Source: a virus
DNA length: 64,000 nucleotides
Virus record (IMG/VR): IMGVR_UViG_3300033048_000096
Direction: 5' to 3' (one strand)
Every line of letters begins with the position of its first letter. The first letter of the stretch is position 1. This document shows positions 21,825-45,160 of this stretch, one piece after another. The position numbers and the translations under genes are program-made. The notes below the pieces were generated by a model that made no database searches, had not been told where the DNA came from, and was given only the letters and a program-made list of their open reading frames with translations.

Positions 21825-24443
21825 TTAAATAGACATCAGCTTTTGAAGAGCATTGTCTATAAGATCTGAGGCTTCGTTCAATCCTGAATCGTCAGCCTGG
21901 TCTCCTAACTTAACTAAGTTTTGTATAACCCAGGCGTGTCTTCCTCTGAAGTTACCTGAAGGCATGCTTAACGCAACGCCTTTGTTATGTCTATGTTGTT
22001 CGATTTGGTTTTCAACAACTCCTCCCTTCCCCATGGCATCAGCGATATCGATGGTTTTCGGATGAGCGGCTCCAATCAGATCGGCACCTGACTCGTTATG
22101 AACCTTATAAAGCTTAACGAAGTCAGCTTCAGATTTGCCAAGTTTATTATCATACATGCTTTTTAGCCCTGCATAATAAGATTTAGCGTATTGGTCCTCA
22201 AGACCTGCGACAGCATCTTGGAAGTATTGTTTTGAAATTTGATCTGCTTTCTTATGCATATCTTTATTAATCCCATTGTCATAAATAACACTTGATTCGT
22301 TAGAATTAGCAGGTTTCGTAAATTTTTGTGTAAAAAAGTTATTATTTTTTTGATTAGCATATTTTCCTAACTTCCCTCTATAAAACTTGACAGCATTTTT
22401 CCACCCGCTCATTCGTTTCCTTCCGACCTTATCTAGGTTTTGCCTTACAAATTTTCTAAGATCGGTTCTATTGAATATTTTATTGAGGTATAGATATTTT
22501 AGAGATCTAAGATAATCATTTTGATTATTCTGAGTTTTGGTAAGCCACCCGCCCCATTTATTCTCTGGGTCAGTAAAGGCTAAACCTTCTGGTGTGTTTA
22601 GTACTTTCTTGATGATTCTTGGGGCGGCGCTTCTCATTCCTCTGCTTAGGCGGCTTATATCTATATCTTCATTGTTGATGGAGACAATTTGAGGGTAGGG
22701 ATTATCTTTATTTGAGAGAGGCTCTTCTGTGTTTTGTTGGTTAGTGTTTTCTGCTGGTCTAGCTATTGGTTGATTTATGCCTCTGGATTCTTCTTTTTGG
22801 TTATCACTTGGTTCGTCTAACAGTTCGTCTGAGTATTGCATAGCTTGCATCATTATTTCTTTGAATTCGAGTGTATTTTCTGACAAAGCAGTTAGAGCAT
22901 TAATAGCTTCGTCAAATCCATTCCCTGCGTTTAGGTCTTGTTTTATATCTTCTTGTAGTTTTAGGTAGTTATCTACATAGGCTTCCATAGTTGTAAGATC
23001 AGTGAGAGCGTCAAAGAATTCTGCTTTGGATAGGTCTTCTTTCTTTAAGTTATCTAGTGAGTTGAATGATTTGAGTATAATTTCAATTAGTTCTGATGTT
23101 TGATTAAGGCCATTGGATCCTTCTTTGAAGTTAAGCTCCCTTAATTTTCTTATTGCATTATATTGGTTAGCTCTAAGTTGGTCTATTTCTTCTTCGGCTA
23201 ATTGGAAGTTACTTCTGAGCCAATTAATCCAAGCATAAACTGCTCCTTCGCTAACTAATCCTGCTATAGCTAAGAAGGTCAATCCTTTTATCAGTGTTGC
23301 CGAGGTTCCCAGTATTTTTGGGCTATTCTTAAGAAACAATTTCATAATAAATGCTGTAGCTGTGGACGGTCTTGATGGTTTTGAAGTTACTTTAGCGACT
23401 TCTTTGGCTGCTTTTGCTGCGCCTTCCTTTGATGCCTTGGCTGTTGCTTTAGATACGGTCTTAGCGGCCGCTGGGGAGGCTTTGGTTACAGCTTTGGTTG
23501 CTGACGCGGTATCCTTTGAGGCTTGTCGTGCGGCCGCTGAGGTTGCTTTTGCCGCGAAAGAGTTTTCTCCCGCCGCTTCTTTCGCTGCTTTAGCTAGCCC
23601 CTCTAGGTATCCAGCTTTTCTTGATTCATCTATAGCTTTTGCGAGTTCTTTCTTATGTTTAGCTGCAAGCTTTATTCCTTCTTCTGAGAGGTTTTTTATT
23701 GTACTTTCCAGTCCGCTTATATTGTCGGCACCTTTGGCTACATCATCTTTGAGTGTTTTTATTAGATTCCCTTTTTCATCTAGTTTCCCTCCGAGATCTA
23801 ATATTTTTTTCTCTAAGGTATCGACCATTGCTTCTGATTTTTTAAGAACAAAGATTGATTTTTTATATAATTCTTCTAGATTAAGTTTTTCATTTAGCAA
23901 TTCGCTTGTTTCTTTGGATGCTTTTAGTAGCGCATTTTTAGCTTTGGTAGCTTGCCCTGCCATTGAGGCTCTGCTTCTTTTTAGGTTAACCATCATCAAT
24001 GCTACTTCATCTACGCTTTTGTCACCTATTAGCTTCATCCCTTGAGCTATTTTGGAGATCACTGATATTTGCTCAGTCATTATGTTTGCTGCGTTAATTA
24101 ATTCTGGAGCAAGCTTAGATACCTTTGGTGCGTTTTTAACGCCTAGTTCGACAACTTCTTTTCCTGCATTCATTAGTTTATTAATTTCATTAATATTTTT
24201 GCCGGTAAGTTTGGATATTTCTTCTGGCGTTATCATGCCTGACTTAAGAGCTTTAATTATAAAATCATCCAGTGTCATTCCGGCAGCGCTTAGTAGTGTC
24301 TTGAGAGAACTTAGCCCTGATTCTTTAAGAGCCTTGATCATAGGCGCCATAACGTTAGCTTGTTTTTTGAGCATATATTTTTGCATTACTGCAGAATATT
24401 CGTCAAAGACTTCTGATGATGCTGTTTTTTGAATCCTAGACAT
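21825..24443 (-). CDS. Large Lys/Ala-rich coiled-coil protein, putative internal head (ejection) protein
   Basis: 872 aa with coiled coil, Ala/Lys-rich stretch and one hydrophobic segment; K-x-A motifs; C-terminal helix-G-helix motif. Confidence 0.5.
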   Translation of the reverse strand: MSRIQKTASSEVFDEYSAVMQKYMLKKQANVMAPMIKALKESGLSSLKTLLSAAGMTLDDFIIKALKSGMITPEEISKLTGKNINEINKLMNAGKEVVELGVKNAPKVSKLAPELINAANIMTEQISVISKIAQGMKLIGDKSVDEVALMMVNLKRSRASMAGQATKAKNALLKASKETSELLNEKLNLEELYKKSIFVLKKSEAMVDTLEKKILDLGGKLDEKGNLIKTLKDDVAKGADNISGLESTIKNLSEEGIKLAAKHKKELAKAIDESRKAGYLEGLAKAAKEAAGENSFAAKATSAAARQASKDTASATKAVTKASPAAAKTVSKATAKASKEGAAKAAKEVAKVTSKPSRPSTATAFIMKLFLKNSPKILGTSATLIKGLTFLAIAGLVSEGAVYAWINWLRSNFQLAEEEIDQLRANQYNAIRKLRELNFKEGSNGLNQTSELIEIILKSFNSLDNLKKEDLSKAEFFDALTDLTTMEAYVDNYLKLQEDIKQDLNAGNGFDEAINALTALSENTLEFKEIMMQAMQYSDELLDEPSDNQKEESRGINQPIARPAENTNQQNTEEPLSNKDNPYPQIVSINNEDIDISRLSRGMRSAAPRIIKKVLNTPEGLAFTDPENKWGGWLTKTQNNQNDYLRSLKYLYLNKIFNRTDLRKFVRQNLDKVGRKRMSGWKNAVKFYRGKLGKYANQKNNNFFTQKFTKPANSNESSVIYDNGINKDMHKKADQISKQYFQDAVAGLEDQYAKSYYAGLKSMYDNKLGKSEADFVKLYKVHNESGADLIGAAHPKTIDIADAMGKGGVVENQIEQHRHNKGVALSMPSGNFRGRHAWVIQNLVKLGDQADDSGLNEASDLIDNALQKLMSI

Positions 24444-24445
24444 AT

Positions 24446-24889
24446 TTAGTCCTCATCGTATATGATTGAATCTATTGCTCTCTCGATTTTATATGCAACT
24501 TTGTAGTTACCCGAGTGGGAAGCCTCTGCTGCCATTTGTCCTAATTCTTCTAACAGGGATGCTTTAGCTATAGATTCTTCTTCTTGTCTTTTAGCTAGCT
24601 CTTCTTTTTCTGTTGGTTCAATTTCATCTTCGGCTAAGTTTTCTGCCATATCCATGAAGCTTCCTAACTCCTTTGATGCCGTCTGGGTATCTTTGCTAAC
24701 TTGCTGAAGCTTTTGGGAGACCTGTCCAGCTTGCTGAGCTTCCACGAACTTTTCAGCTTTTTTGATTTGCATGATGGCCGCCTTTTCGATAAGAATTTTA
24801 AACTCATCCATTGTGGTTATCTGCGCCTCATTCCATTTTTCTTTGTAATCAACATATTGTCTAGCCATAATAAACCCCTTACCTATCAA
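24446..24889 (-). CDS. Putative internal head/scaffold-associated protein
   Basis: Helical; C-terminal LLEELGQMAAEASHSGNYKVAYKIERAI motif. Likely start MARQY at 24868. Confidence 0.5.
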   Translation of the reverse strand: MIGKGFIMARQYVDYKEKWNEAQITTMDEFKILIEKAAIMQIKKAEKFVEAQQAGQVSQKLQQVSKDTQTASKELGSFMDMAENLAEDEIEPTEKEELAKRQEEESIAKASLLEELGQMAAEASHSGNYKVAYKIERAIDSIIYDED

Positions 24890-24953
24890 GAAAAATAATT
24901 AGTATTTAACTATTTTAGTTACCGCGTATATAATATTTTATCCATATTAATTC

Positions 24954-25646: not shown

Positions 25647-25664
25647 ATAATCTCCATATTAGAC

Positions 25665-25694
25665 AAAAAGGAGGAATCTTTACGATCCCTCCTT
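25665..25694 (-). terminator. Rho-independent terminator
   Basis: Minus strand AAGGAGGGATC-GTAAA-GATTCCTCCTT then TTT. Confidence 0.75.
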
Positions 25695-25728: not shown

Positions 25729-26319
25729 TTATCCTTGCTTTTTGATATTTTGTATTGTGGTAGTGACTACGTCTCCCGTCATCCTATCACCTTTACTATA
25801 AGCATCAGCAGCCATTTTTTGAAGTCCTGAGACAACTCTTAATTTATTAGCAGCTTTTTTGAGGGCATTATTTTTTATGTTTTTAGCTGTAGACAATATC
25901 ATATCAGCCGCGAAATTTTTATCTTTAGCTCTCATTTCTCCTGCGATCTTTCCAAGTTCATGCAAAACATACTGTGCTCTTCTATCTACCAAGTATGACG
26001 TATCATTAGCCATTGATTCAGGCCTTTCTTGTTCGCAGCCATCTTCAGCCATATGCTCCTTGTTGCACTTGCCGCAAGGTCCATCACTAGCATAAGAAGA
26101 TACTTCTTTGATTTTCCTATCAAGTTGATCGCCATGAACATCCACCTCTTCGGCAGGGCTAACTAGAAAGTCCTCTGGACTTACTTGAGCAAGCTTTGAA
26201 GCGAGTTCCTCTTCTTTTTTCCTAACAAGAGATGCTTCCTTCTTAATGTTATTAAGTTTAGACATACTCTGATGGAAGCTTTTCGCAAGCTCTTCTGCTG
26301 CATATTTATTTCCAAACAT
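25729..26319 (-). CDS. Putative internal head protein with two helix-G-helix modules
   Basis: 196 aa; NKYA, KKEA, SKLA, KKAA, QKMA motifs; AGGAG RBS. Confidence 0.55.
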   Translation of the reverse strand: MFGNKYAAEELAKSFHQSMSKLNNIKKEASLVRKKEEELASKLAQVSPEDFLVSPAEEVDVHGDQLDRKIKEVSSYASDGPCGKCNKEHMAEDGCEQERPESMANDTSYLVDRRAQYVLHELGKIAGEMRAKDKNFAADMILSTAKNIKNNALKKAANKLRVVSGLQKMAADAYSKGDRMTGDVVTTTIQNIKKQG

Positions 26320-26329
26320 AGTATACTCC

Positions 26330-29300
26330 TTAATCCCACATCGAGGCTAGAGTCTTATGGTTAATGCCATCTCTATTCGTTGAGTTTTGTCCAGGCTCAT
26401 CAGTTACTCCAATATTAAGGCCGGTAACATCAGAGGCAATCTTTACTGACGTATGGCCAGTAAAGGATGCGACACTTCTCTTGAATGACTCAAAGGCTTT
26501 ATCATCAAAGTCCATCATATTATCGACTTGACGATTAAGTGCGGGTCGCGTACCTGCAAGCATACCTTTTCGTTGCATTTCCATAGCGACGTCATAAGCT
26601 CTACGAAGTCTTATCTTGTAAGCATCTCTTTCGTCTTCGGCCTTTTTGTAGAGGAAACTCTTATTTAGCTTTGACTGAACAGAACTTAGTTGATCAGCCG
26701 CGTCACTTTCTTTGTCATGAAGGCTCTCTTCGTGCTTATCAACCTCTTCTTCGGCAACCTCCTCAACTTCCTCTCTCTCCTTAGCGCTAAGATCATCTTC
26801 TGCGGAATTTTGAAGTCTTCCATCATCAGCGGCATGCTGTTGAACGGATGTTACTGATTTTTCTGCGACTTGACGTGACGGAGTGCTTGGATAGCTGTCG
26901 TACTGGTTAGCGTCTTGGTTACCATGGGAAGGTGCTGGCTTATGCTCACCACCGGTCGGGTTTTTATTGGCTATATCTTCGGCCATATCAGTGGTTACTC
27001 CGGATACTTGAGCATTCTCCTTCATTCCGATGCCGTCATGAGCCTCATTCTCCCGAGCCTCATCACCCTCAACCTCTTTATCGTCAGCATACGCTTCGGA
27101 AGCCTCATCACCATTCTCAAGATCCATACCGTTAGCTCTAAGTCTAGCTTGAGCTTTCTTTAATAGTTCTTGACGACGCTGCTTTCTCAGCTTCATTGCG
27201 CTAGCGATTAACTCACTCTCTCCTGAAACCGGAGCTTTAGCGGGAGTCACAATTGCTGCCGATTCCGTATACTCGGATACCTTAACCATGGATGTCGAAA
27301 TAGTGTTGGCCATGCTGACTAACGCTTTTGATTGACCTACGATCGTAGAGAAGTCACGAAGCGCTGCTCCAGAAAGACCCTTAAGATCGCGCCTCTGAGT
27401 AGAGGAAAGCTTTCCGTATCTTTCGTAGGTTTCGGCTATTAGCGCTAACTCATCCGCGGAATCTTTCGCTTCAGCCAGAACAATCTTTAGCTGACCAAAA
27501 ATCGTGCTAGAAAGCTTCATACTTTCTTCTGGCATATCCGGCATATCAACACCTTCGCCAACATTAATGGTAACATCACCGTCGGAATCTCCAAGATCAC
27601 CAAGTGCACTTCGGATTTGCTCGATCGTATCTTCCATCGCGAGTAATGAATCTTCAATTTCCGACTTGGGAGTGCCTTCGCTCTCAAGCTCTTCGCCTTC
27701 CACCGGAAGCTCTTCACCCATATCTAAGGGGGCCTCTTCCATTGGGGCGGGAGGAAGCTCTGCACCCAACTCCGCACCAGGCATTTCGGCGCCTAGGTCC
27801 TGAGCAGTTCTTGTTAGATTGTATCCAACAAATCCTATTCCATCTTCTCGGATAGCAGCAACTACTGCTTTCGCGTAGTCAGTGCTTTTTAAGAATTCCC
27901 AATTAGCCTCAAGATTTTTACCGAAAATGTTTTTAGCAGTAGTTGCAATAACTAACTTGCCACCAGAGTAAACTTCGAAGCCAGAAGCAGCCTTATTTAT
28001 GCTTCCATCTAGAGCGCGCTTTTGCTTAAACTTGGTAGAAAGCGAGGGACCTTTATACTTAGATCTTTTTTGAAGTTGCTTTATAGCGTCATCTCCAGGA
28101 AACATGCCCTTGTCACCGCCCATATTTCCGGTCTGCAGCATATGCTTGTCAGAATCCCAGTACTTATGATAATCTTCTGAGGTGAACGTAGAAGGCTCAA
28201 CGGAAGGGGCCGCTCCACCGAAGTAGTAAGCTCGCTTTTCAGTAGCGACATTCTTATCTTCAGCTCTAAGTTGCTTCTCTTTTATCTCTTTATCACCGGG
28301 AACCATCCCGTCGGGACCGCCAAGGTTAGTTGGGTTTGCATGCATTTGTTTATCATCCTGTTCGCGAATTTTCTTTTGTAAAGCACCCTCATCCTTGTAG
28401 GTACTCGGTTCTGATGCTGGAGCCGCTCCTCCCTGAGGATAGGCTAGACGGCGACGAAGCGCAGCCCTTTTACGTAATCTTGACTCATTCATAATGTCCT
28501 CCGTTATGGAACTTAATTTAATTTTATCATTTATCTTCTCTTGTGAAAAAGCATAATTTTCAGGCCCTACACCGTCTCCCTTAAATGAATCAGGATTTGG
28601 CTCACTAACACCTGCGACCAGACCGGAAGACCCGGTGCCAGTATAATCACTAACGTCACCATCATCTTTCATAGTAATGGTATCACCACCAGAAGCGTTT
28701 TCGCCACTAGTAAATACTTCGCCGAGTGGATCCGAAAGATCATCACCAGCAATTAACTCGTCGCTAAAGAAGCTTCTGAATAACTCAGGAGCTTGCTCCA
28801 TAGTCTTGCCGGTAGCTGAAGCGAAATCTGCCATAGCTTTAGCAAGTTCATTTCTGTCTTGAGCATTCTTTTTACTGGCAGATTTTGTGAATCCACCGGT
28901 AGACAAATATCCCTTAACAATTCTCTCTCTCTGCTCTAAAGAGCAGCTTCCCGCACTACAAACAGAATTAAGCAATAAATCTAAGTTATTAACCTCTTTG
29001 GCACTAAGCTTTTTGAGATCCAAATCTACTCCGTAAGAACTCAACTCTTCTTTGTGCTTATTAATCGAAGCGAAGCATCTCAACAAGATCGAGCCAGGTT
29101 CTGCCGGATGAACTACTAGGCTATATTCAATTGGACTCAGACCTACGTTAATCTCTCCCCAAGCTTGTCTCGTCATTATATGACTACAATATTCTTTAGG
29201 AGTAGTTGCCGGCTTTCCACATTCAGTACAAATTGATGTAGCTACCGCAGTTCCCATCGAACCATAGCGAACTACGCCAGTAGATACTTTTCTTGCTAAA

Positions 29301-29821
29301 TCCGGATAATTAACTTTATCCAAAGCGCAAAGCCCAACGACTTGCTTTAACCTCTCATCATAATGAGTGTCTAGAATTATTCCCCTTACACCATCTACAG
29401 TATCAGACTTGTGATCAACACATAGGGGTCTTCCAATCCAATCCCTTGCGGCCTTCTTTAACTCAGACTCAGGAAAAATATCTCCATTATTATTTTTATG
29501 AGCTTTTACGTTGCCGTGCCACTTCCACTTTTCATCAAAATATCCCCAAGCATTATCTTTACCAACTTTCTTTAGATTTCCCTCTCCGTCGATTAACGAA
29601 GACTCTGCAGCCTTTAGAAAGATAATGCTGAAGTATAGAAAGTCGTCAGATTTCGGAGCAATAGTCTTTATTGTTTGTGCAAACTTATTTAATCTATTTA
29701 ATATATCTTCGCTAGCTAATTTGGTGTCAAACTCTGATGGACTTATTTCGCTTACCACGCTCATCTCTGTATGTCCAAATTTAACAATTTGCTTACTAAT
29801 CATACTTGCCCTCGATTTCAA
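26330..29821 (-). CDS. Prohead (maturation) protease fused to scaffold
   Basis: N-terminal NNNGDIFPESEL...GRPLCVDH...GIILD...SMGTAV..SICTECG...YCSHI...EYSLVVHPAEP protease-like domain; long acidic/coiled-coil C-terminus; between portal and MCP. Likely start MISKQ at 29803. Confidence 0.75.
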   Translation of the reverse strand: MKSRASMISKQIVKFGHTEMSVVSEISPSEFDTKLASEDILNRLNKFAQTIKTIAPKSDDFLYFSIIFLKAAESSLIDGEGNLKKVGKDNAWGYFDEKWKWHGNVKAHKNNNGDIFPESELKKAARDWIGRPLCVDHKSDTVDGVRGIILDTHYDERLKQVVGLCALDKVNYPDLARKVSTGVVRYGSMGTAVATSICTECGKPATTPKEYCSHIMTRQAWGEINVGLSPIEYSLVVHPAEPGSILLRCFASINKHKEELSSYGVDLDLKKLSAKEVNNLDLLLNSVCSAGSCSLEQRERIVKGYLSTGGFTKSASKKNAQDRNELAKAMADFASATGKTMEQAPELFRSFFSDELIAGDDLSDPLGEVFTSGENASGGDTITMKDDGDVSDYTGTGSSGLVAGVSEPNPDSFKGDGVGPENYAFSQEKINDKIKLSSITEDIMNESRLRKRAALRRRLAYPQGGAAPASEPSTYKDEGALQKKIREQDDKQMHANPTNLGGPDGMVPGDKEIKEKQLRAEDKNVATEKRAYYFGGAAPSVEPSTFTSEDYHKYWDSDKHMLQTGNMGGDKGMFPGDDAIKQLQKRSKYKGPSLSTKFKQKRALDGSINKAASGFEVYSGGKLVIATTAKNIFGKNLEANWEFLKSTDYAKAVVAAIREDGIGFVGYNLTRTAQDLGAEMPGAELGAELPPAPMEEAPLDMGEELPVEGEELESEGTPKSEIEDSLLAMEDTIEQIRSALGDLGDSDGDVTINVGEGVDMPDMPEESMKLSSTIFGQLKIVLAEAKDSADELALIAETYERYGKLSSTQRRDLKGLSGAALRDFSTIVGQSKALVSMANTISTSMVKVSEYTESAAIVTPAKAPVSGESELIASAMKLRKQRRQELLKKAQARLRANGMDLENGDEASEAYADDKEVEGDEARENEAHDGIGMKENAQVSGVTTDMAEDIANKNPTGGEHKPAPSHGNQDANQYDSYPSTPSRQVAEKSVTSVQQHAADDGRLQNSAEDDLSAKEREEVEEVAEEEVDKHEESLHDKESDAADQLSSVQSKLNKSFLYKKAEDERDAYKIRLRRAYDVAMEMQRKGMLAGTRPALNRQVDNMMDFDDKAFESFKRSVASFTGHTSVKIASDVTGLNIGVTDEPGQNSTNRDGINHKTLASMWD

Positions 29822-36375: not shown

Positions 36376-37011
36376 TTAGGATAAATTTGGTTCCGCATGA
36401 TTATAATATTCCGCCACAGAATCTTCAGCATCTCTTTCTTGATGCTTAGAACTATCAGAGGGAATATATGAAACTAAACTACTGAAACTATCATCATGCG
36501 CACCAAGTAAGTCTTTTACGTAGCCAATTAATTTACCTTTATCTATCTTACTCTCTAAATCATTATATCTTAAACCATCCTCCTGCTTGCAACGAGAGAT
36601 TACGGTGGATGCGTCCAAGTGAGGCTCATGCTGAACCATATCTTTAATGTATGTTAAAATGTTTCTCATTAATTCCACATCTCTATGCGGATGAGCCATG
36701 GCTGTTTTTATAGAACAAGCGCAAGAAGAACTTGAATGCTTACACTCGCATCTATTTAATGCCATTTTTTCATTGCTTACTTTCTCCATTTCATTAACAA
36801 TCTTTATTGTTAAATCAAAACCAAGTCTTTCTCTGAAATCAGCCATCTTCTCATCTATACTGCCGAATTTCTTATCCTTATGTATCTTGTTAAGATATTC
36901 CCTTAGATAATCAATGTTTTGTGCATTTTTATCCAGATCGTGAGCAAATTCGTATAACCACATCGCGGTTATTTTACTCTTTTCGTTTAAGCTATGTCTT
37001 TTAATTTTCAT
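36376..37011 (-). CDS. Hypothetical head-module protein
   Basis: 211 aa; DKNA, EKVS, EKMA, IKTA motifs. Confidence 0.6.
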   Translation of the reverse strand: MKIKRHSLNEKSKITAMWLYEFAHDLDKNAQNIDYLREYLNKIHKDKKFGSIDEKMADFRERLGFDLTIKIVNEMEKVSNEKMALNRCECKHSSSSCACSIKTAMAHPHRDVELMRNILTYIKDMVQHEPHLDASTVISRCKQEDGLRYNDLESKIDKGKLIGYVKDLLGAHDDSFSSLVSYIPSDSSKHQERDAEDSVAEYYNHAEPNLS

Positions 37012-37020
37012 AATTATTCC

Positions 37021-38064
37021 TTATGCAAAGTAATTCTTCATAAAATCAACTCCCTCACCATCACCGTCATTATCAGATTCGCCTATAGAACCTCTATCCT
37101 TGAAAATAGGCTGGCCCATATCCATAAGAATTTGCAAAATAGCCAACTCTTCTCTGTCAGTAAATTTATACTTCTTCTTTAGGAACTCATAAACATCCTC
37201 AAAAGGTTTTCCGGCGGATACTACCGAGTTAATTATCATGCCTGTTATTGCTCGCTCCCATGGAGTCATTATGAGCTGAATCTGCGCAGTACCTGCTTCC
37301 TTCTTTATGCTAACAGAACCGGTTCCGCCCTTCTTGTGCCTTTTGTTAAGCTTTTTAATATGTTCTTTTAAGGTAACCATATCTCTTATCATATTGACTC
37401 TTATACCTTCTAGGGTCGGTAGATCCAATGCATCATTCTTGTCACTTCTTAATGCTTCGGATATCTCCTTATTTCTGTGAGTCAAGAATAAAATAGCTCT
37501 CTCGCATCCCAATGTAGAGCTTCCGTCATGGGCGGGAATTCCGTCGGGATATGCCGTCTTAATATACTCCATGAAATGGGAGGGGTCTCTGTCGTTAATC
37601 CAGTCAGTTACTTTATCCGCAACCTCTTCTTTAACTTCACTATCCTTATTGTCATCAACATAGTCCGTAGCACCAGGTAATCTAAATGAACTTGGAGAAT
37701 CTATTGTCTCATCGCTCTCGGTGCCTGGAAGACCAAAACTTCCGCTCATATCAAAAGTCTCATCAGACTCCTTATTTTTTTCGCCAGACTCTCCCTCGAT
37801 AAATTCAATCATATCATCTAAGCTGCCTTTATCACCAACATCATCTAACGGCAATATTAAAACCTCAGGCTCAGAGCAGCTCTCTTCATCTTCATCTTCA
37901 TCTTCGAACATATGCTCATCGAAGGTTATGATCAAAGGGCTGTCACCACCTGGGAACCCATGATCTTTGTCAGAGATAGAACCTAAATTAAATTCCTGCG
38001 CAGTCTTGCTCTGCTCAATATACTCTGTAACAATAACTTTTGACATCACTCTTCTCCTATCCAT
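37021..38064 (-). CDS. Hypothetical acidic head-module protein
   Basis: 347 aa (likely start MSKVIV at 38046, AGGAG RBS); SKTA, IKKEA motifs. Confidence 0.6.
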   Translation of the reverse strand: MDRRRVMSKVIVTEYIEQSKTAQEFNLGSISDKDHGFPGGDSPLIITFDEHMFEDEDEDEESCSEPEVLILPLDDVGDKGSLDDMIEFIEGESGEKNKESDETFDMSGSFGLPGTESDETIDSPSSFRLPGATDYVDDNKDSEVKEEVADKVTDWINDRDPSHFMEYIKTAYPDGIPAHDGSSTLGCERAILFLTHRNKEISEALRSDKNDALDLPTLEGIRVNMIRDMVTLKEHIKKLNKRHKKGGTGSVSIKKEAGTAQIQLIMTPWERAITGMIINSVVSAGKPFEDVYEFLKKKYKFTDREELAILQILMDMGQPIFKDRGSIGESDNDGDGEGVDFMKNYFA

Positions 38065-38341: not shown

Positions 38342-40048
38342 CTATTGTTGGTAGCCGCTTAACTTAATTAACCTTTCTTTTCTATTATTAATATTAGCAA
38401 GTTTATTTTTCCTCCCAAGAATAGATACGTGATAATGAGGACCGGCCATTTTAGTCTCGTCAACAATCTTTATGTTAAAATCATTATCTATACGCATCGC
38501 ACTTAACACCTCTTTTATACCGGAAGTTAACGAAAAATCCAAGGCTTGTCCTGGGTCCGTAATATGATGGCTTCCTACAGTTCTGCTTCTTATAACCTTA
38601 GCACCTAACTCTTGAGCATCTTTTCCTACCCCATAACTCTCAAATATATCTGACATCTTGCTTCCATAACTTTTTCCGTATAGCCCTTCCAGATACTCTC
38701 TTCCGCCATTCATTCCGCCATTATCATTCCAGTTTCTTCCCATCAAGGCGGATTGGTTTCTTATAGATCTCCAACCACTAGTTATTATTGGGGTCTGAAC
38801 ACCCATCTCCTTAGCTTTATTACCTATAGCCTCAATGAAATCTTTTACATCTTGGGTTACATTATTAATATTAACCCCGGGTTTAGTATAAACATTTCCT
38901 CTGGATACAGAAGTGTACCCAGAGGCTCGCTCCGGTACCCTGTTGGAACTTAAATTTCTATCCGGTATAATGAGATTATAAAGCTTATTTCTTCTCTCTC
39001 TAAAGCCTTCCGTTAATGATGGCGGAATTAAAGAACTAACTCCCCAGTTAGAACCGCTTAGCTCATTTTTCATTATACTAAGAGTCTCTTCTGGGCTTTT
39101 ATGAATATTATTCCACTCGTTTTTATATTTATTAGAATACCAAGATGCCCAACTATTATACGACGGACTAGATTGTTCTGAGATATTATTGTAATTAGCC
39201 TTCCACCACTCTTCTAGTTTTTTATATTCAGGGCCCTGCGATACATACGAGTTCCAATTATTAGCCAAGAAAGCAAACTTGTTATCTAATGCAGGGCTGC
39301 CGAGGTAATCAACCAAAATCTTCTTCTCTATCAATATATCTTTAAAATATCCTGACAAGGGAACGTTCTTAAATAAGCCCAGATCTTTAAGCAATTTGAG
39401 CGTTAGATCTTGATTTGCCTTAAGGGCTTTTCCAATTTTAACAGCTATATACTTGTCTTTTACGTTGCCCGAACTAAATAATGATGGATTGCTGATTGTG
39501 AACTCTTTAATCTCAGGAGCGATATCAAAATCATATCGTGCTGCAAGATTTATCGCGCGGTAAACTCTACGAGGATCATCGGTTAACGTAATTTCCGGAG
39601 GAACCGGGGTACGAATCAATTTACTTCTCATATCCTCAAAGCCTTGGCCAGTGGGATCCGTTATCTCCCCAGAAATTAAATCCTGATGCAAAGCATTTAT
39701 CGTGAAGTCTCTACTGAATGCTTCCTCAAAGCCCTCGTTAGCCCCATTTAAATGTTTCACTACCCCGTCAGATACGAAATTGCTTGAAAAGTCTAAATCA
39801 AATTCTTCAGAAAATACTGTAACATGACCGTCGTCAGAAAGCTCGAAAGTAACATTTAATTCTTCGGCCAATAAAATTCCCAGTCTTAAAACCTCAGATG
39901 AATTAGTTGTTAGATCTATATCTGTAGTCTTTACGTTAGGGATATCCATAAATATATCTCTGGGTAACCCACCAACAACAAAAGTCTTGTCAATAAGGTA
40001 TTTATTAGCTATGCTATCAATAAACTTAAGCGTATCTTTTAAACTCAT
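38342..40048 (-). CDS. CCA-adding enzyme/poly(A) polymerase-family nucleotidyltransferase fused to peptidase M15-like domain
   Basis: VVGGLPRD...DIDLTT...RDFTINAL...DPTGQG...DDPRRVYRAI (class II NTase). C-terminal ITSGWRS...SHH...ALDF...HYHVS (M15/LAS metallopeptidase). Confidence 0.85.
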   Translation of the reverse strand: MSLKDTLKFIDSIANKYLIDKTFVVGGLPRDIFMDIPNVKTTDIDLTTNSSEVLRLGILLAEELNVTFELSDDGHVTVFSEEFDLDFSSNFVSDGVVKHLNGANEGFEEAFSRDFTINALHQDLISGEITDPTGQGFEDMRSKLIRTPVPPEITLTDDPRRVYRAINLAARYDFDIAPEIKEFTISNPSLFSSGNVKDKYIAVKIGKALKANQDLTLKLLKDLGLFKNVPLSGYFKDILIEKKILVDYLGSPALDNKFAFLANNWNSYVSQGPEYKKLEEWWKANYNNISEQSSPSYNSWASWYSNKYKNEWNNIHKSPEETLSIMKNELSGSNWGVSSLIPPSLTEGFRERRNKLYNLIIPDRNLSSNRVPERASGYTSVSRGNVYTKPGVNINNVTQDVKDFIEAIGNKAKEMGVQTPIITSGWRSIRNQSALMGRNWNDNGGMNGGREYLEGLYGKSYGSKMSDIFESYGVGKDAQELGAKVIRSRTVGSHHITDPGQALDFSLTSGIKEVLSAMRIDNDFNIKIVDETKMAGPHYHVSILGRKNKLANINNRKERLIKLSGYQQ

Positions 40049-40058: not shown

Positions 40059-41594
40059 TTAAACTAATGGCTCGTCTGGCTGCTTAACTGGAGAAACTTT
40101 AGACTCCTCAATTCCCTGCTGTATAGCTGCGGCACCTCTATCTGTCTCATCTTCATTCTCTGGCTCGAAAACCTTTCTAACCTCTTTCTTCGTGCGGCTA
40201 TTTAATTCATTCTTTTTAGCGTCAGATATCTCAATCAAGCTCTTGCCACTAGCCAACATTCCAAGCATCTTAGTGACACGAGTTAAGGCATATGAATTAC
40301 CATCAATTAGCTTACTTTGAGCTTCAGCTAATTCGGGAAACATTGCAGCGATACCAATCTTGTCAATCATAATATCAAACTCAGCTAACATACGAATGGT
40401 TCTTCTGTCTGATAACCTTCCAGCGATCTCCTCAAGTTTAATGACGGCATCAGTTAATGTTATGGGACCACCTAACTGCTCATACTCACCCTCTCTAGCC
40501 TGAGAACCGCCAGACAAAGCTTTGCTTAATGAGCTTTCGTTAACCTCTTCTGACTCATTTCTATCAGGTGTCAGCTCAGAAATTCCTTCTGATATGGGTT
40601 CAGGGACATCATCTAATGTGGGCTCTAGGACATCCTCTGATATGGTGTCTGGAATATTCTCTGATATGGGCTCAGGAACATCCTCTCTGTTCTCTAATGG
40701 ACCTGGAGATAGATCCTGAGAGAATTTCATTAGCTCATCATGGCCTTTTGAGAATCCAGCTTTCTTAAACTTATTTGCATATTTAAATGATAAATCCGAT
40801 GCAGTTACCTCATGCTTAAGACTTCTAACCTCTTGATCAAAATGATGAAGCAGGTCGGCCAAGTCTCTATGCGTTTCCTTATCTATGTGATCATCACTTT
40901 GCCTAAGAAGCTTATCAATCCTTCTTATCGCAGAATATAACTTGCTGCGCCATTCTATATACTCACCCTTAGAATCGTGCTTTTTAAATGATGGATTGTT
41001 TTTAGGAACAATAGCGTTATCAGGCCCGTAAGTACCTGGGCCCATTAGCGGAAATTGAAATCCATTTTTCTTTATATTGTCTTCTTCGTCAGAACTGTAT
41101 TTTAGATGCTCCCCTTTTTGATAATACTGAATCCATTTTTTGAACTTTTCATCCTCGGAGGTTTTAAGATCTAAACTGCCAGCATAATAATCTATAGCGC
41201 TAGGTAAATTCATGTCGCCGCTACTTACAGCGTCATAAATCTTATGAACCAACCCTGACCACTTATCTATGTCAAATTCCTGATCACCTTCCTGAGGGCC
41301 AAACATCATCGGATAAGAGAACTTTTTAATCTCCCTATTTTCCATCGCTGACTTGAATATTAAATAATAATAATCGTTCAATGTTTTTAGACTGTAATCA
41401 TCCTTATTGTCAAATGACTCAATGACCAATTTTGGATTTAGACGGCTACCAAAAGTTGCCTCAATTATATTATGAATATTTACAAGATCTCTATAATCAG
41501 ACGAAGACTTAACAAGCACTTCCGGGTACAAGATCATAACTTTTTTTAAATCTTTTTTAAAGCTCATTTTTCTTCTCAACATTTTTGATAGCAT
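40059..41594 (-). CDS. Putative internal head protein with short DVPEPISE repeats
   Basis: 511 aa (likely start MSFKK at 41567); VKSS, KKFS, LKYS, FKYA, MKFS motifs. Confidence 0.55.
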   Translation of the reverse strand: MLSKMLRRKMSFKKDLKKVMILYPEVLVKSSSDYRDLVNIHNIIEATFGSRLNPKLVIESFDNKDDYSLKTLNDYYYLIFKSAMENREIKKFSYPMMFGPQEGDQEFDIDKWSGLVHKIYDAVSSGDMNLPSAIDYYAGSLDLKTSEDEKFKKWIQYYQKGEHLKYSSDEEDNIKKNGFQFPLMGPGTYGPDNAIVPKNNPSFKKHDSKGEYIEWRSKLYSAIRRIDKLLRQSDDHIDKETHRDLADLLHHFDQEVRSLKHEVTASDLSFKYANKFKKAGFSKGHDELMKFSQDLSPGPLENREDVPEPISENIPDTISEDVLEPTLDDVPEPISEGISELTPDRNESEEVNESSLSKALSGGSQAREGEYEQLGGPITLTDAVIKLEEIAGRLSDRRTIRMLAEFDIMIDKIGIAAMFPELAEAQSKLIDGNSYALTRVTKMLGMLASGKSLIEISDAKKNELNSRTKKEVRKVFEPENEDETDRGAAAIQQGIEESKVSPVKQPDEPLV

Positions 41595-41817
41595 CTATCC
41601 AGGATTCCAGCTGTCTAATCAACTTTAGCCAAAAAGAATTATCAATATCTTTGGCATTAGACACAGCCCTCTTAATATAAGTAAGAAATATTAACAAGTG
41701 CTCATCAGGAATCTTCTTATCTTCATATATCTCTGCAATGTTTTCTTTTAGCCACAATCTAAATGATTCTATATTCTTTAAATTGTCTTGTGTTATGAAG
41801 TTATACCTATTATGCAT
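41557..41817 (-). CDS. Hypothetical protein
   Basis: 86 aa overlapping neighbours. Confidence 0.55.
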   Translation of the reverse strand: MHNRYNFITQDNLKNIESFRLWLKENIAEIYEDKKIPDEHLLIFLTYIKRAVSNAKDIDNSFWLKLIRQLESWIDAIKNVEKKNEL

Positions 41818-42511
41818 CTATAACTTCCAATCTGTTGTAATTATTATAACTTTCAGAATTATGCTTCGTGTTAATAAGTTTTGAGTTTACCTTCTCAACG
41901 AACATAGGTATCAACGACGGGTCCAAATCTTGAAGGACCTCGAATACAATGTTCTTTAGAACAGTTACTTGTTCGTTAACGACAGTTATGTTTATGTTGT
42001 GATCGATGGTCTTATCCGCGACTCCCTCAACATACTTTTTCCAATCCTGAACTAATCCGCGCTGAGTGTTAAGAAGATCAATTAACATCTTATCCTCCTT
42101 TAGACTGCCATTGTTAGTTTGCAATGTGTTGAAATAAAACTCAATTCTAGTGCTCACAAGCGTAAGCATCTCAAGAATCTTTCTGTTAGCGTCTAACTCG
42201 GTAGATACAATCTCATCTAACTTCTGCTGATATGCTGATGAATTTGAGATAATTGATCTGGCATTTAAAGCGTCAGAATCGCTATCACTTTCTTTTCTTG
42301 CTGTCTTTAAGTTATCAAGAACCTCTCCATGTACACCTAAATGCTCTTTTCTGAATTTCTGCAATGTGGCGTAAGAAATTTGAAGGCGTCTTTTTCTGGG
42401 ATGTTTCCTTTTTAACCAAGCTTCAACTTTTTTCACAGACTCTCCGTTAAGAAGCTTCTTGATAATCTCTTCCCTCTCTGGGTGCCCAAATACTTTGTTC
42501 TGCTTTTCCAT
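41810..42511 (-). CDS. HTH + coiled-coil protein, possible terminase small subunit
   Basis: HPEREEI...LLNGES...ISYATL N-terminal HTH, long helices, terminal beta strand (HNINITVV); upstream of terL. Confidence 0.4.
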   Translation of the reverse strand: MEKQNKVFGHPEREEIIKKLLNGESVKKVEAWLKRKHPRKRRLQISYATLQKFRKEHLGVHGEVLDNLKTARKESDSDSDALNARSIISNSSAYQQKLDEIVSTELDANRKILEMLTLVSTRIEFYFNTLQTNNGSLKEDKMLIDLLNTQRGLVQDWKKYVEGVADKTIDHNINITVVNEQVTVLKNIVFEVLQDLDPSLIPMFVEKVNSKLINTKHNSESYNNYNRLEVIDA

Positions 42512-42523
42512 TATTTATACCTC

Positions 42524-42557
42524 AAAAACAAAAGCCCGCTAATAATCGTAGCAGGCT
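42524..42557 (-). terminator. Rho-independent terminator
   Basis: Minus strand AGCCTGCTA...TAGCGGGCT-TTTGTTTTT. Confidence 0.6.
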
Positions 42558-42590
42558 AATCATGTAAATATATTATACCAATTAAATCTC

Positions 42591-43055
42591 TCAGCTTCTA
42601 TTTAAAATGTCCGTCTGCAAAGAAACTCTGCCTCCGACAAACGTCTCCCCATCTTCCGTTTTGAAGCCATCGTTCCAATCGTAAATTTTATTAGTTATTG
42701 GGTCCTGAAAAACACCGTCAGAAACTCTGCGGGCCTGAACACCAACTCTATCAGGTGAGTATCTTGTCGACAATGAACGATCAAATACGTCCGTAGAAAG
42801 ATCGGTCTTTTTGTGATCAGATAATCCAACGCCGTATAGCTTGGAACTATCGTCATCGCCTCCACGCTCTACTGTCTTATGGCCGCGAGTATCATACTCA
42901 GATGAGGTACCTCGGGAATTCTGTAAAATCCCGTACTCTTCTGCCGTCTTAAGGATTGAATGTAATGCAGTTATTCTCATTGCTCTGGCAAGCTTTTTGT
43001 TTTTTAATTTATTAGCCTGCTTTAACACTAACCCAACTTTAGTCTCTTTACTCAT
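42591..43055 (-). CDS. Hypothetical head-module protein
   Basis: 154 aa; LKQA, KKLA, LKTA motifs; RSLSTRYSPD conserved-looking block. Confidence 0.6.
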   Translation of the reverse strand: MSKETKVGLVLKQANKLKNKKLARAMRITALHSILKTAEEYGILQNSRGTSSEYDTRGHKTVERGGDDDSSKLYGVGLSDHKKTDLSTDVFDRSLSTRYSPDRVGVQARRVSDGVFQDPITNKIYDWNDGFKTEDGETFVGGRVSLQTDILNRS

Positions 43056-43063
43056 TAGATCTC

Positions 43064-44641
43064 CTAGGTAAGTAATATTCTGCTTGTATTAATTGAATTA
43101 CTTTCAATTTGATTATCCGCTCTAAGCCTTCTACCCTTAGGGATCACTCTGCCTTTCTCGTCAAAAGAAATTTTGCTGACAGGTAGGGCCAGGTGCGGGC
43201 TGTAAAGCTCTACGGAGGTTGGGACCTTAATTAAATCTCCGCGATCAAATGCCGCCTTAATAAGCTCCTTTCTTTTTGAACTGTCAGAAGAATACTTTAT
43301 CATCTCAGAATACTTATCAAAAGCCGCTACGTACTGATCACTACCAAAACGATGATTTATCGTCTGTAAGGCGTCCTCAGCTAATTTGTAATCTTGCTTA
43401 GCTACACCATCAAGAACCCGATCCATCAGCTGGTGATACGACATGGACGCTAGTATGCCTGTATGTCTAGCCACATTAAGCGATTCGCTTTTCGTACTCA
43501 AACCGTTGGCGAAGTTTTCAAAACCTTCCTTGCTGAAGTCAAAAACTTTCTGCTCATCTGACGCAACATTCGCCGCAAATCTATTGGGCAATAAAGGCAT
43601 TCCGTTAGAAATCTCCACAGGAACATGCACTACCGAATTCCCTAGTCTCGTAGGAATGTGAACATCAAACAAAATCCCGCGTTCACTCGATGAAGCGATC
43701 TTTATATTAGTACTTGCCGCGCCGAATGACGCAAACTCAGCACCAAGCATTCCTATCGCTAACTGAATATGGTTAGCGTCGAATTTACTCGCTGCAGCCA
43801 CTAACGCATTTTCTAAGTCAGCAAACTGCTCTAAGCTATTAGGAATAACAGACTTTCTCATCTCTAATGATGGGGCACCGTCTCCTCTCGCTGTGGCGAA
43901 ACGTCTATTCTGATTGGCCTTGAGACTCTTCTCCTGCTCCTTGATCGCTAAATACAAATTTCTGCCGTCAAGCTCAACGGCCTCTTCTGCAATTATAATA
44001 TGCTTAGGCTCTCTAGCTACACCATCCGTTATCTGAACAGGTATTAGTGTCGTTACACTAGATAAGTTGCTAGTCTTATGAGTTGCTGCGCAAAGAGCGA
44101 AGTGCTCGTTAGACTCTACTATATCAACGCCCGATGGCATATACCCCAAACCACTCAGCTTAGCTATTACCGCCTTTTTAACACTCTTGTCTTCACCGGG
44201 CTTATATGTGCCGAATGATGCACTCCTTCCTAATGAGAATAGAACCGAAAAAGCGTCGGAAAGCTCAGAATCCTTATTGATAGGCTCCAATGGATTTTCT
44301 GACATCTTACGCTTATTCGATCCAGCATGGACAATTTTGGCGAACCGTCTATTGGGAGGTAGCAAATCCTCTAATGTGTCTCTAAATGCAGTGTGACCAC
44401 CGGACATACCATATAGTTGGTCATAAAGCTTTCCAATCTCACTTTGCTTTATATACTCTCTGTTTTTAGCCACCTTAACTAAAACATCACGCATGTTGCA
44501 TATCAGCTGATCAGTTGAGTTTTCATTGGCAGCTTTTTGAAGTCTAATAACAACATAATCAGCTGGGTATGTTTTGCCAGACTCCATCTGAGCTAATGCC
44601 TCTTGGGCTTCTTTTAAAATTTTTCTAATTTCTTTACTCAT
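43064..44641 (-). CDS. Hypothetical virion-associated protein with internal duplication
   Basis: 525 aa; two similar segments (TLIPVQITDG / VHVPVEISNG); K-x-A/S motifs. Confidence 0.6.
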   Translation of the reverse strand: MSKEIRKILKEAQEALAQMESGKTYPADYVVIRLQKAANENSTDQLICNMRDVLVKVAKNREYIKQSEIGKLYDQLYGMSGGHTAFRDTLEDLLPPNRRFAKIVHAGSNKRKMSENPLEPINKDSELSDAFSVLFSLGRSASFGTYKPGEDKSVKKAVIAKLSGLGYMPSGVDIVESNEHFALCAATHKTSNLSSVTTLIPVQITDGVAREPKHIIIAEEAVELDGRNLYLAIKEQEKSLKANQNRRFATARGDGAPSLEMRKSVIPNSLEQFADLENALVAAASKFDANHIQLAIGMLGAEFASFGAASTNIKIASSSERGILFDVHIPTRLGNSVVHVPVEISNGMPLLPNRFAANVASDEQKVFDFSKEGFENFANGLSTKSESLNVARHTGILASMSYHQLMDRVLDGVAKQDYKLAEDALQTINHRFGSDQYVAAFDKYSEMIKYSSDSSKRKELIKAAFDRGDLIKVPTSVELYSPHLALPVSKISFDEKGRVIPKGRRLRADNQIESNSINTSRILLT

Positions 44642-44653
44642 TTTAACAACCCT

Positions 44654-45160
44654 TTATAAAAACTTTTTTAATTCTGGAAAAGTACTGGCTAATGCTAATC
44701 TTTTTGCCTTAGGCTGCTCGTCGAAAACATCCTTAACAAATGCTTCATCATTCGTCGCGCTATCAAGTAATGCAGCTTTAAATGTTATTATATCATTAGA
44801 TGAAAAGCCGTACTTGTCAGATGAAAAGCCGGCTACAGGTACCTTATTATATGATAGTGTGACGTTGTTTTTGTCGTAATTGCTAGTTACCGTCCAGTTG
44901 CCATCACCAGACTTATCATACTGCGGATCTGAAGCTCGGACTAGATGGGGGCTTCCGTCGACATCCTGAACAACCCACAAACCATCGTAAGGATCATTCT
45001 CCATTCTGAAAACATCAAATGCAACACGCTTAATCGTTCCGTTACTCTCTAACTCTTCAGAATAAGCAATTTTATTTTTATTGCTAACACTACTTGATGT
45101 TCTTTCAATAACATCCTGTAAAACCCTATCAATGTTCGCTAAGTATTTTTCTTTAGACAT
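44654..45160 (-). CDS. Hypothetical protein
   Basis: Start MSKEK at 45160 (GAGGG RBS); NKIA, KRVAFDVF, LVRAS motifs. Confidence 0.6.
   Translation of the reverse strand: MSKEKYLANIDRVLQDVIERTSSSVSNKNKIAYSEELESNGTIKRVAFDVFRMENDPYDGLWVVQDVDGSPHLVRASDPQYDKSGDGNWTVTSNYDKNNVTLSYNKVPVAGFSSDKYGFSSNDIITFKAALLDSATNDEAFVKDVFDEQPKAKRLALASTFPELKKFL

What the first reader, a model, noticed from the sequence alone, without database searches (positions are those of the whole stretch)
21825..45160. Pervasive hydrophobic-x-K-x-[A/S] motif across head-module proteins: candidate maturation-cleavage code for virion cargo polyproteins
Seen: the motif clusters at termini and domain boundaries. N-termini: MKKIA, MKKEA, MNKAS, IQKTA, GNKYA. 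Portal leader: MTKRA. Protease/scaffold: LNKFA, FTKSA, LRKRA, LYKKA, VKIA. DUF192/HAD/coil borders: FEKVA, LLKRA. Around the M15 domain: DNKFA, KNKLA. Others: IKKEA, ILKTA, LMKFS. Established: T4 gp21 and phiKZ gp175 process many internal head proteins at short motifs ending in Glu. Inference: an analogous system cutting after Ala/Ser with Lys at P3, releasing domains inside the capsid. The motif is short and also occurs by chance, e.g. in the zinc modules.
Basis: partly seen in the sequence, partly recalled or inferred. Interest (0 to 1): 0.85.

Follow-up and report, generated by a model that had tools for sequence, protein, structure and literature searches.

The report
Predicted head-protease cut signal, giant phage
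The head-assembly proteins of this uncultured giant phage, and of its cultured relative Bacillus/Lysinibacillus phage G, carry a short recurring signal (hydrophobic-x-Lys-x-Ala) that most likely marks where the phage's own capsid-maturation protease cuts them; this would be an undescribed cutting rule for a known kind of system, and no cut has yet been measured.

Summary
The window is the head module of a phage G-like jumbo phage (capsid protein 51% identical to phage G gp27). Hydrophobic-x-K-x-A occurs 43 times in the head module against 13.8 expected; replication genes (7/6.2), tail-side genes (1/2.9) and the terminase family show no excess. The signal is in-frame only and favours N-termini and domain linkers. 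It peaks in the head module of two independent whole genomes. In phage G the most enriched of 588 ORFs is the head protease gp19. The same blind scan recovers T4's known L/I-x-E cut motif. The protease domain has the T4 gp21/herpes assemblin fold with invariant His and Ser. The motif sits at natural gene fusion/fission junctions, which partly supports the polyprotein idea. Best reading (0.62): the phage protease cuts after Ala, at L/I/F/M-x-K-x-A then S/Q/G/A. About 40% of the loose [A/S] matches are chance; cleavage and packaging are unproven; the 'HAD' label was not confirmed. I found no paper with this rule, but this scan reported it on at least eight other genomes. New variant of a known kind, testable on phage G.

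The parts
26330..29803 (-). Prohead protease-scaffold fusion (1157 aa from the ATG at 29803). Protease core about 29108-29653, with His (codon 29411-29413), Ser (29258-29260) and a zinc-ribbon insertion; then a helical domain and an acidic scaffold region with about 9 conserved K/R-x-A sites
   Evidence: PHROG 18299 head maturation protease E=1.3e-13; His/Ser invariant in 34 sequences; T4 gp21 Z=9.8, rmsd 2.8 over 123 aa; site conservation; C-terminal part matches phage G gp21, E=1.6e-7
29678..29692 (-). LNKFA site just before the protease core (candidate N-terminal autoprocessing site)
   Evidence: P5 hydrophobic 39/39, K/R 37/39, Ala 37/39; phage G gp19 has two such motifs at the same place; lies in a low-confidence predicted helix
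28877..28891 (-). FTKSA site after the helical domain that follows the protease (candidate release site)
   Evidence: motif within +-4 columns in 25 of 39 relatives
20061..21083 (-). HK97-fold major capsid protein with a 45-aa leader absent from phage G gp27; the leader holds IVKYA followed by Ser (21003-21017), then a variable Ser-rich linker
   Evidence: 51% identical to phage G gp27 / PDB 6WKK; in 120 sequences Ile 117, Lys 118 (Arg 2), Ala 120, next residue Ser 84 / Ala 34
32800..34578 (-). Portal protein; poorly conserved leader ending at a K-x-A/S site (34369-34383) shortly before the conserved core
   Evidence: PHROG portal E=4e-48; motif retained with register shifts in relatives and in phage G gp14
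29866..31713 (-). DUF192 + alpha/beta domain + helical bundle protein (615 aa), with sites MKKIA (31699-31713), FEKVA (30958-30972) and LLKRA (30364-30378)
   Evidence: Pfam DUF192, Foldseek 3m7a/3pjy; K3, K448 and A450 at least 90% conserved in a family of 36% mean column identity; first and last sites lie in pLDDT<50 linkers, FEKVA in a loop
31715..32002 (-). 95-aa protein starting MKKEA
   Evidence: 31 of 31 listed stand-alone relatives have hydrophobic-x-K-x-A/S after a leader of variable length; fused to the upstream protein in 7 loci (5 distinct) with the motif at the junction
32007..32531 (-). 174-aa protein: N-terminal motif plus a helix-Gly-helix hairpin (about 32217-32324) ending in INKFA
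38342..40048 (-). CCA-adding-type nucleotidyltransferase fused to an M15-like peptidase; K-F-A at the junction (39272-39286) and K-L-A after the peptidase (38396-38410)
   Evidence: Pfam PolyA_pol; VanY E=0.037; separate genes in G001 and L009; junction Lys invariant in 8/8, K/R-x-A after the peptidase in 6/7
21825..24443 (-). 872-aa Lys/Ala-rich head-region protein with N-terminal sites and a weakly scoring C-terminal hairpin
   Evidence: 9 vs 3.2; relatives have 34 sites in the first 35 aa vs 5.9 expected
25729..26319 (-). 196-aa motif-rich helical protein
   Evidence: family enrichment 6.7-fold (102 vs 15.2)
36376..38064 (-). Two motif-bearing proteins upstream of the terminase (211 and 347 aa)
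   Evidence: family enrichment 2.7-fold and 4.0-fold
40059..44641 (-). Block holding further motif-bearing unknown proteins (511, 154 and 525 aa)
   Evidence: the G001 orthologues of the 154- and 525-aa proteins are among its five most enriched ORFs
34586..36367 (-). Large terminase: internal negative control (not a head-core protein, no motif excess)
   Evidence: 0 vs 1.8; relatives 3 vs 10.1

Best explanation
The motif is the recognition site of the phage's own clan SH (T4 gp21 / herpes assemblin fold) prohead protease, which cuts after the Ala of [L/I/F/M]-x-K-x-A, usually before S, Q, G or A. Ser at P1 and Arg at P3 are tolerated, and P5 is helpful but not obligatory. Shown: the motif, its confinement to the head module, its conservation at N-termini, linkers and fusion junctions, and the protease fold with invariant His/Ser. 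Inferred: after prohead assembly the protease frees itself from the scaffold, chops the scaffold into pieces of about 35-180 aa that can leave the shell, and trims the 27-residue capsid leader, the ~70-residue portal leader and 5-35-residue leaders of internal proteins. Where two cargo genes have fused, the retained site would let the protease separate them again.
For: Enrichment 43 vs 13.8 in the window; none in replication or tail-side genes. In whole genomes the top 10-kb bin is the head module in G001 (21 vs 6.3) and in phage G (13 vs 3.7). Phage G gp19 protease ranks first of 588 ORFs (7 vs 0.77), and the top five G001 ORFs are all head-module proteins. Positive control: the blind pair scan returns L-x-E and I-x-E for T4 core proteins (35 vs 14.6), the known gp21 motif (PMC9026906), and K-x-A for phage G (52 vs 24.5) and Tunturi_5 (38 vs 17.4). 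Protease fold: T4 gp21 is the top hit. Fixed positions alternate (P5, P3, P1) while P4 and P2 vary, as expected for an extended substrate strand. Small residue after Ala 0.40, after Lys 0.13, background 0.23; h-x-K-x-A-[S/Q] 13 vs 1.7. The best-conserved sites of the DUF192 protein lie in disordered linkers. The motif is kept at fusion junctions. Hosts differ widely (Lysinibacillus, Acidobacteriota, Mycobacterium), which favours a phage-encoded reader.
Against: No cleavage has been observed in any member; the phage G papers I could read report none, and Gonzalez 2020 was not available. Some conserved matches lie inside the protease core (FLKAA, LKKAA) or in predicted helices (LNKFA, the capsid leader, hairpin ends), so not all are sites. 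In the scaffold the residue after Ala is not biased to small residues (0.24 vs 0.25). The hydrophobic P5 is weak or absent in Tunturi_5. Dickeya phage JA29 has a related protease but no such motif, so the rule does not cover the whole protease family.
Confidence: 0.62

Rival explanations
1. The motif is a docking or targeting signal that brings proteins to the prohead core or shell (like the targeting half of the T4 capsid-targeting sequence) and is mostly not cut.
For: It clusters at N-termini and ends or begins a 28-residue helix-Gly-helix hairpin found on many unrelated proteins (47 of 78 hairpins have K-x-A/S at their end). Several sites are in predicted helices.
Against: A docking tag does not need about 9 spaced copies in the scaffold or copies flanking the protease core. 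T4's real cut motif shows the same statistical pattern. The bias for small residues after Ala fits a scissile bond. Phage G has the motif but no detectable hairpin.
Confidence: 0.17
2. The phage protease does cut at this motif, but after the Lys (hydrophobic-x-K, a Lys version of T4's L/I-x-E), with Ala at P2'.
For: Hydrophobic-x-Lys parallels T4's L/I-x-Glu (PMC9026906); HK97 protease cuts after Lys (own knowledge). h-x-K-[SA] is somewhat raised (47 vs 30.9).
Against: The residue after Lys is usually bulky or charged (I, E, K, T; small only 0.13), and K-[S/A] overall is depleted (85 vs 103.7). Lys-Ala spacing stays fixed even when the hydrophobic residue is absent.
Confidence: 0.11
3. The pattern is a by-product of amphipathic, Lys/Ala-rich helices in head and scaffold proteins and has no reader.
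For: Many head proteins are helical. GroEL shows 3 vs 1.2 and the zinc modules are mildly raised.
Against: Composition is controlled per protein. Only Lys is enriched at P3 (log2 +1.6; Glu -0.2, Arg +0.1, Gln +0.2). The helical tape measure of phage G is not enriched (6 vs 5.2). JA29 head proteins are not enriched. The motif is conserved in disordered linkers and variable leaders.
Confidence: 0.06
4. A host protease, a phage ClpP, or a Lys-modifying enzyme reads the motif.
For: Phage G encodes ClpP/ClpX, found in particle preparations (PMC12484599). Host-protease processing of capsid leaders is known in staphylococcal phage 80alpha (own knowledge).
Against: The motif is shared by phages of unrelated host phyla and is densest in the clan SH protease itself.
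Confidence: 0.04

Closest known systems
Phage T4 head maturation: gp21 protease cutting gp22, gp67, gp68, gp23, gp24, IPI-III and Alt after L/I-x-E (PMC9026906)
   Same: Same protease fold (Z=9.8); multi-substrate short gapped motif; many sites in the scaffold, N-terminal leaders on retained proteins, sites flanking the protease; same statistical signature
   Different: Predicted P1 Ala and P3 Lys instead of P1 Glu and P3 Leu/Ile ([IL]-x-E is not enriched here: 86 vs 84.1); HK97-type single capsid protein; protease fused to the scaffold; zinc-ribbon insertion
phiKZ gp175 (S/A-x-E) and SPN3US gp245 (A-x-E) proteolytic maturation (PMC9026906, PMC10052503)
   Same: Jumbo phage; portal, capsid and many internal proteins carry propeptides; protease autoprocessing
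   Different: Glu motifs are not enriched here (131 vs 126.5; 45 vs 40.8); unrelated lineage; cleavage is measured there and only predicted here
Herpesvirus assemblin (e.g. pseudorabies pUL26; predicted R-site YLQA-T, M-site VQA-S; PMC4498786)
   Same: Related fold (VZV protease Z=6.8); protease fused N-terminally to the scaffold; cut after Ala before a small residue
   Different: Herpes [V/L]-x-A-[S/A/T] pattern not enriched here (23 vs 22.5); Lys at P3; Ser-His-His triad not established here; herpes has about two sites, here dozens of candidate substrates
Bacillus/Lysinibacillus phage G head module (gp4-gp21, gp19 protease, gp27 capsid; PMC12484599, PDB 6WKK)
   Same: Homologous capsid (51%), portal (31%), protease (33%) and scaffold C-terminus; same motif, 22 vs 7.6 in the gp4-gp20 stretch
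   Different: Phage G has protease and scaffold as separate genes, no capsid leader and no detectable hairpin tag; no cleavage sites are reported in the papers I could read

Membership tests
Clan SH prohead protease (T4 gp21 / HK97 / assemblin fold) | Assemblin-type beta-barrel fold | tested here: met
   AlphaFold2 model: T4 gp21 5jbl Z=9.8, rmsd 2.8, 123 aligned, the only hit with Z>=8; Foldseek ranks T4 gp21 first, then herpes proteases, none with E<=0.001
Clan SH prohead protease (T4 gp21 / HK97 / assemblin fold) | Conserved catalytic His and Ser | tested here: met
   His (D-H) and Ser (S-M-G) invariant in 34 sequences, with an invariant Glu-x-Ser downstream; their catalytic role is inferred from the family pattern
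Clan SH prohead protease (T4 gp21 / HK97 / assemblin fold) | Gene between portal and capsid genes; family profile match | tested here: met
   Gene order; PHROG 18299 head maturation protease E=1.3e-13; homologous to phage G gp19 and Rhodococcus E3 gp77 'prohead protease'
Clan SH prohead protease (T4 gp21 / HK97 / assemblin fold) | Proteolytic activity on head proteins | not testable with these tools
   Needs biochemistry or virion proteomics
T4/phiKZ/SPN3US Glu-specific maturation system | Cleavage motif ending in Glu (L/I-x-E, S/A-x-E, A-x-E) in head proteins | tested here: not met
   86 vs 84.1, 131 vs 126.5 and 45 vs 40.8, whereas T4's own core proteins give 35 vs 14.6
T4/phiKZ/SPN3US Glu-specific maturation system | One short motif repeated in scaffold, protease flanks and leaders of many head proteins | tested here: met
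   (with K-x-A in place of the Glu motif)
T4/phiKZ/SPN3US Glu-specific maturation system | Substrates are inside the virion and are found cleaved | not testable with these tools
   No peptide-level data available
Herpesvirus assemblin system | Protease-scaffold fusion | tested here: met
   One ORF of 1157 aa whose C-terminal part matches phage G gp21; the scaffold role is inferred from position and composition
Herpesvirus assemblin system | Site consensus V/L-x-A followed by Ser/Ala/Thr | tested here: not met
   23 vs 22.5
   The window has F-D-F-D, but the first Asp varies in relatives; an alpha/beta domain is predicted; no Pfam or Foldseek HAD match on the whole-chain model
Peptidase M15 (C-terminal half of 38342-40048) | Zinc ligands S-x-H...D...H-x-H and an upstream S-G-x-R-S motif | tested here: inconclusive
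   T-S-G-x-R-S, His, Asp and H-x-H invariant in 8 sequences; Pfam VanY only E=0.037; Atlas M15/VanY clusters at 0.80-0.81, lead level only

The most novel reading that the evidence does not exclude
Phage G-like jumbo phages run a genome-wide 'load and release' code. A K-x-A site, often at the end of a portable 28-residue helical hairpin, lets unrelated enzymes (an ADP-ribosyltransferase-like protein, kinases, a tRNA nucleotidyltransferase, cell-wall peptidases) be packaged in the head. Because the protease cuts at the retained site, genes can fuse into virion polyproteins that are split into working domains during maturation.
Probability: 0.25. Interest if true: 0.72.

Novelty: new variant of a known kind. 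Interest (0 to 1): 0.5.

Why it matters
Measured multi-substrate cleavage rules for large phages (T4, phiKZ, 201phi2-1, SPN3US) all end in Glu. A Lys-x-Ala rule would be a second specificity, sharing the herpes assemblin's P1 Ala, in a large and mostly uncultured lineage (1,860 capsid homologues at E<=0.001) that includes phage G. It would give a sequence-only way to pick out likely internal head proteins among hundreds of hypothetical genes, and to predict mature protein boundaries. It can be tested now: phage G is cultured and has particle proteomics (PMC12484599). The principle itself (one prohead protease trimming many head proteins) is long known, and this scan has reported the same motif repeatedly.

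Tried and rejected
No whole genome is held for the window, so whole-genome tests used G001 (a complete 335-kb relative), phage G and JA29. Literature searches for a K-x-A cleavage rule found nothing. Gonzalez 2020 (phage G proteomics), the RSL1 paper and the E3 paper are not held. The phage G preprint supplement, cut when stored, showed no proteomics table. The only solved relative is phage G gp27, which lacks the leader, so it says nothing about processing. DNA-level origin of the motif: rejected. Start-codon bias (M-K-K): rejected as the sole cause, because the motif persists after longer leaders. T4, phiKZ, SPN3US and herpes motifs: not enriched. Hairpin related to the scaffold C-terminus: no support (hhalign probability 1%). 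Co-folding of the hairpin with the capsid protein gave no verdict; it is not used as evidence either way. HAD label: no family or fold match. Searches for viral-contig relatives of the M15 part and the ART-like gene found none. The T4 control used proteins known to be cut, which favours it.
Full report
WHAT THE WINDOW IS. Almost all ORFs lie on the minus strand. The block 20061-45187 is a phage head module: large terminase (34586-36367), portal (32800-34578), a protease-scaffold fusion (26330-29803) and a major capsid protein (20061-21083). The capsid is 51% identical to gp27 of Bacillus/Lysinibacillus phage G, its closest cultured relative. The contig is 238,913 bp. Sixty-two related loci were fetched, and a complete 335-kb relative, G001, is syntenic over nearly the whole window. 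Genes to the right are replication and chaperone genes; genes to the left are tail/neck-side genes and zinc/HNH modules.

CHECK OF THE OBSERVATION. All quoted motifs are present. With per-protein shuffles, [VILMFY]-x-K-x-[AS] occurs 72 times against 30.3+-5.2; the Ala form 43 against 13.8+-3.6; the Ser form 29 against 16.5+-3.9; K-x-A without a hydrophobic P5 is not enriched (39 vs 33.1). The replication block (7 vs 6.2), the left block (1 vs 2.9) and the terminase (0 vs 1.8) show nothing; the zinc modules are only mildly raised. A blind scan of all residue pairs at distances 1-6 ranks K-x-A first (p=4e-6). The excess is in frame only. About 40% of the loose matches are chance.

INDEPENDENT GENOMES. 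The top 10-kb bin is the head module in G001 (21 vs 6.3, p=3e-6) and in phage G (13 vs 3.7, p=1.5e-4); Dickeya phage JA29, which has a more distant protease homologue, has no such bin. By ORF, phage G's head protease gp19 ranks first of 588 (7 vs 0.77), the gp4-gp20 stretch gives 22 vs 7.6 while the rest of the genome gives 192 vs 174, and the helical tape measure is not enriched (6 vs 5.2). In G001 the head module gives 46 vs 17.0, the rest 35 vs 40.9 and 84 vs 77.7. K/R-x-A is also raised in the Tunturi_5 scaffold (20 vs 7.4) and in the protease-scaffold protein of mycobacteriophage NoodleTree (34 vs 17.9).

CALIBRATION. The same blind scan on T4 gp67, gp68, gp21, gp22 and the gp23 leader returns L-x-E and I-x-E as the top two pairs (35 vs 14.6). 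That is the measured gp21 cut motif (PMC9026906). On phage G gp4-gp21 and on Tunturi_5 head proteins the scan returns K-x-A first; on JA29 it does not. So a real prohead-protease motif leaves this kind of trace, at a similar strength.

SHAPE OF THE MOTIF. Pooled over dereplicated relatives, P5 prefers L, F, I, M; P3 is specifically Lys (log2 +1.6, against Glu -0.2, Arg +0.1, Gln +0.2); P1 is Ala, then Ser; P2 avoids Gly, Pro, Asp. In non-scaffold head proteins a small residue follows the Ala in 40% of sites and the Lys in 13% (background 23%); in the window h-x-K-x-A-[S/Q] occurs 13 times against 1.7. This favours a cut after Ala, with all determinants on the non-prime side (P5, P3, P1), as in T4 and phiKZ (P3, P1). 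The T4, phiKZ, SPN3US and herpes motifs are not enriched.

WHERE THE SITES ARE. Capsid: a 45-residue leader missing from phage G carries I-V-K-Y-A followed by Ser or Ala, nearly invariant in 120 sequences, then a variable Ser-rich linker. Portal: a poorly conserved leader ends in the motif, with register shifts, before the core; phage G gp14 has the same. Protease-scaffold: conserved sites precede the core (37/39) and recur at ORF positions about 315, 453, 460, 531, 587, 673, 849, 890, 1061 and 1129, which would give pieces mostly of 35-180 residues. DUF192 protein: in a family of 36% mean column identity, K3, K448 and A450 are at least 90% conserved, and both sites fall in pLDDT<50 linkers, the second between the alpha/beta domain and the helical bundle. 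Some conserved matches lie inside the protease core or in helices and are probably structural.

FUSIONS. (i) The 95-aa protein (31715-32002) starts with the motif in all 31 stand-alone relatives listed, after leaders of different length and with a dozen different residues at P4 and P2; in 7 loci (5 distinct) it is fused to the upstream protein and the motif remains at the junction. (ii) The nucleotidyltransferase and M15-like peptidase are fused in the window and separate in G001 and L009; the junction Lys is invariant in 8 of 8 sequences, including the free peptidase of L009, and K/R-x-A follows the peptidase in 6 of 7. The free G001 peptidase lacks the site. (iii) Protease and scaffold are fused here and separate in phage G. 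These cases fit cleavable polyproteins but do not show packaging.

THE PROTEASE. PHROG 18299 (head maturation protease) matches at E=1.3e-13. His and Ser are invariant in 34 sequences. The AlphaFold2 model (pLDDT 74.5) aligns best to T4 gp21 (Z=9.8, rmsd 2.8 over 123 residues) and to the varicella protease (Z=6.8); Foldseek gives the same order at weak E-values. Phage G gp19 is annotated as the head maturation protease; PMC12484599 says both that it was and that it was not detected in particles.

A SECOND FEATURE. A 28-residue helix-Gly-helix hairpin occurs on 13 unrelated G001 proteins above the decoy level, mostly at N-termini, and in the window at 32217-32324 (score 32.6), weakly at the C-terminus of 21825-24443 and at the start of the plus-strand gene at 16480. 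It was not found in phage G or JA29. 47 of 78 copies have K-x-A/S at their end. It accounts for only a few of the window's sites. Its partner is unknown.

MECHANISM AND RIVALS. Best: the phage protease cuts after Ala at h-x-K-x-A, releasing itself, fragmenting the scaffold and trimming leaders (0.62). Rivals: an uncut docking signal (0.17), a cut after Lys (0.11), a helix by-product (0.06), a host or other enzyme (0.04). Shown: motif, distribution, conservation, fold. Inferred: cleavage, register, packaging, release of domains.

KNOWN AND NEW. It works like T4 gp21, phiKZ gp175 and SPN3US gp245 maturation (PMC9026906, PMC10052503) but fails their Glu criterion; it shares the predicted P1 Ala and the protease-scaffold fusion with herpes assemblin (PMC4498786) but not its site consensus. 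A distant relative, PaBG, shows multi-site processing without mapped sites (PMC7412058). I found no paper with a K-x-A rule, within the limits of the library. This scan has reported the motif on at least eight other genomes and the hairpin on several; those notes are not counted as evidence. Verdict: real, new variant of a known kind, unproven but directly testable; interest 0.5.

Noticed in passing
window:16480-16587 (+), 32217-32324 (-), about 21837-21920 (-); G001 genome-wide: A portable 28-residue helix-Gly-helix hairpin on unrelated proteins (13 in G001, including kinase-like and VanX-like proteins), often ending in K-x-A/S; not detected in phage G or JA29. Candidate head-loading tag.
   Followed up: partly
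window:16468-17574 (+): The only long plus-strand gene: hairpin leader followed by a domain with a YHGTS motif and a weak PARP match (E=0.022; PHROG 11974). It would parallel T4 Alt if packaged.
   Followed up: partly
window:38342-40048: CCA-adding-type nucleotidyltransferase fused to an M15-like peptidase; separate genes in G001 and L009, fused in several other relatives.
   Followed up: yes
window: about 29160-29235: The protease carries a CxxC...CxH zinc-ribbon-like insertion after the catalytic Ser, conserved in relatives and in phage G gp19.
   Followed up: no
window: about 28040-28450: The scaffold contains repeats that begin K/R-x-A then Y-x-Q/F-G-G; relatives vary in copy number.
   Followed up: partly
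window:17853-19181 and 19281-19796: Tandem zinc-ribbon/HNH-like genes with near-identical N-termini; further Cys/His-repeat endonuclease-like genes at 11231-13288, 45636-47186 and 48323-48892, which have no BLASTP match in the syntenic G001 genome, so probably mobile.
   Followed up: no
L062 protease; G001 portal (90249-94109) and terminase (87366-90239): An intein-like insertion in the protease of L062; G001 and several loci have portal and terminase ORFs 350-700 aa longer than the window's, probably inteins.
   Followed up: no
window:1-1824 and 1839-6149: Two large paralogous Ser/Gly-rich proteins with nearly the same N-terminal domain, probably tail or fibre proteins; no motif excess.
   Followed up: no
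window:21093-21749 and 24954-25646: Two conserved small proteins flanking the motif-rich block lack the motif in all relatives (2 vs 3.0 and 1 vs 2.4); probably outer capsid or decoration proteins.
   Followed up: partly
L065 (Dickeya phage JA29) 19719-25629: JA29 has a related protease and a capsid with an N-terminal extension of about 70 aa but no K-x-A excess; its cut rule must differ.
   Followed up: partly
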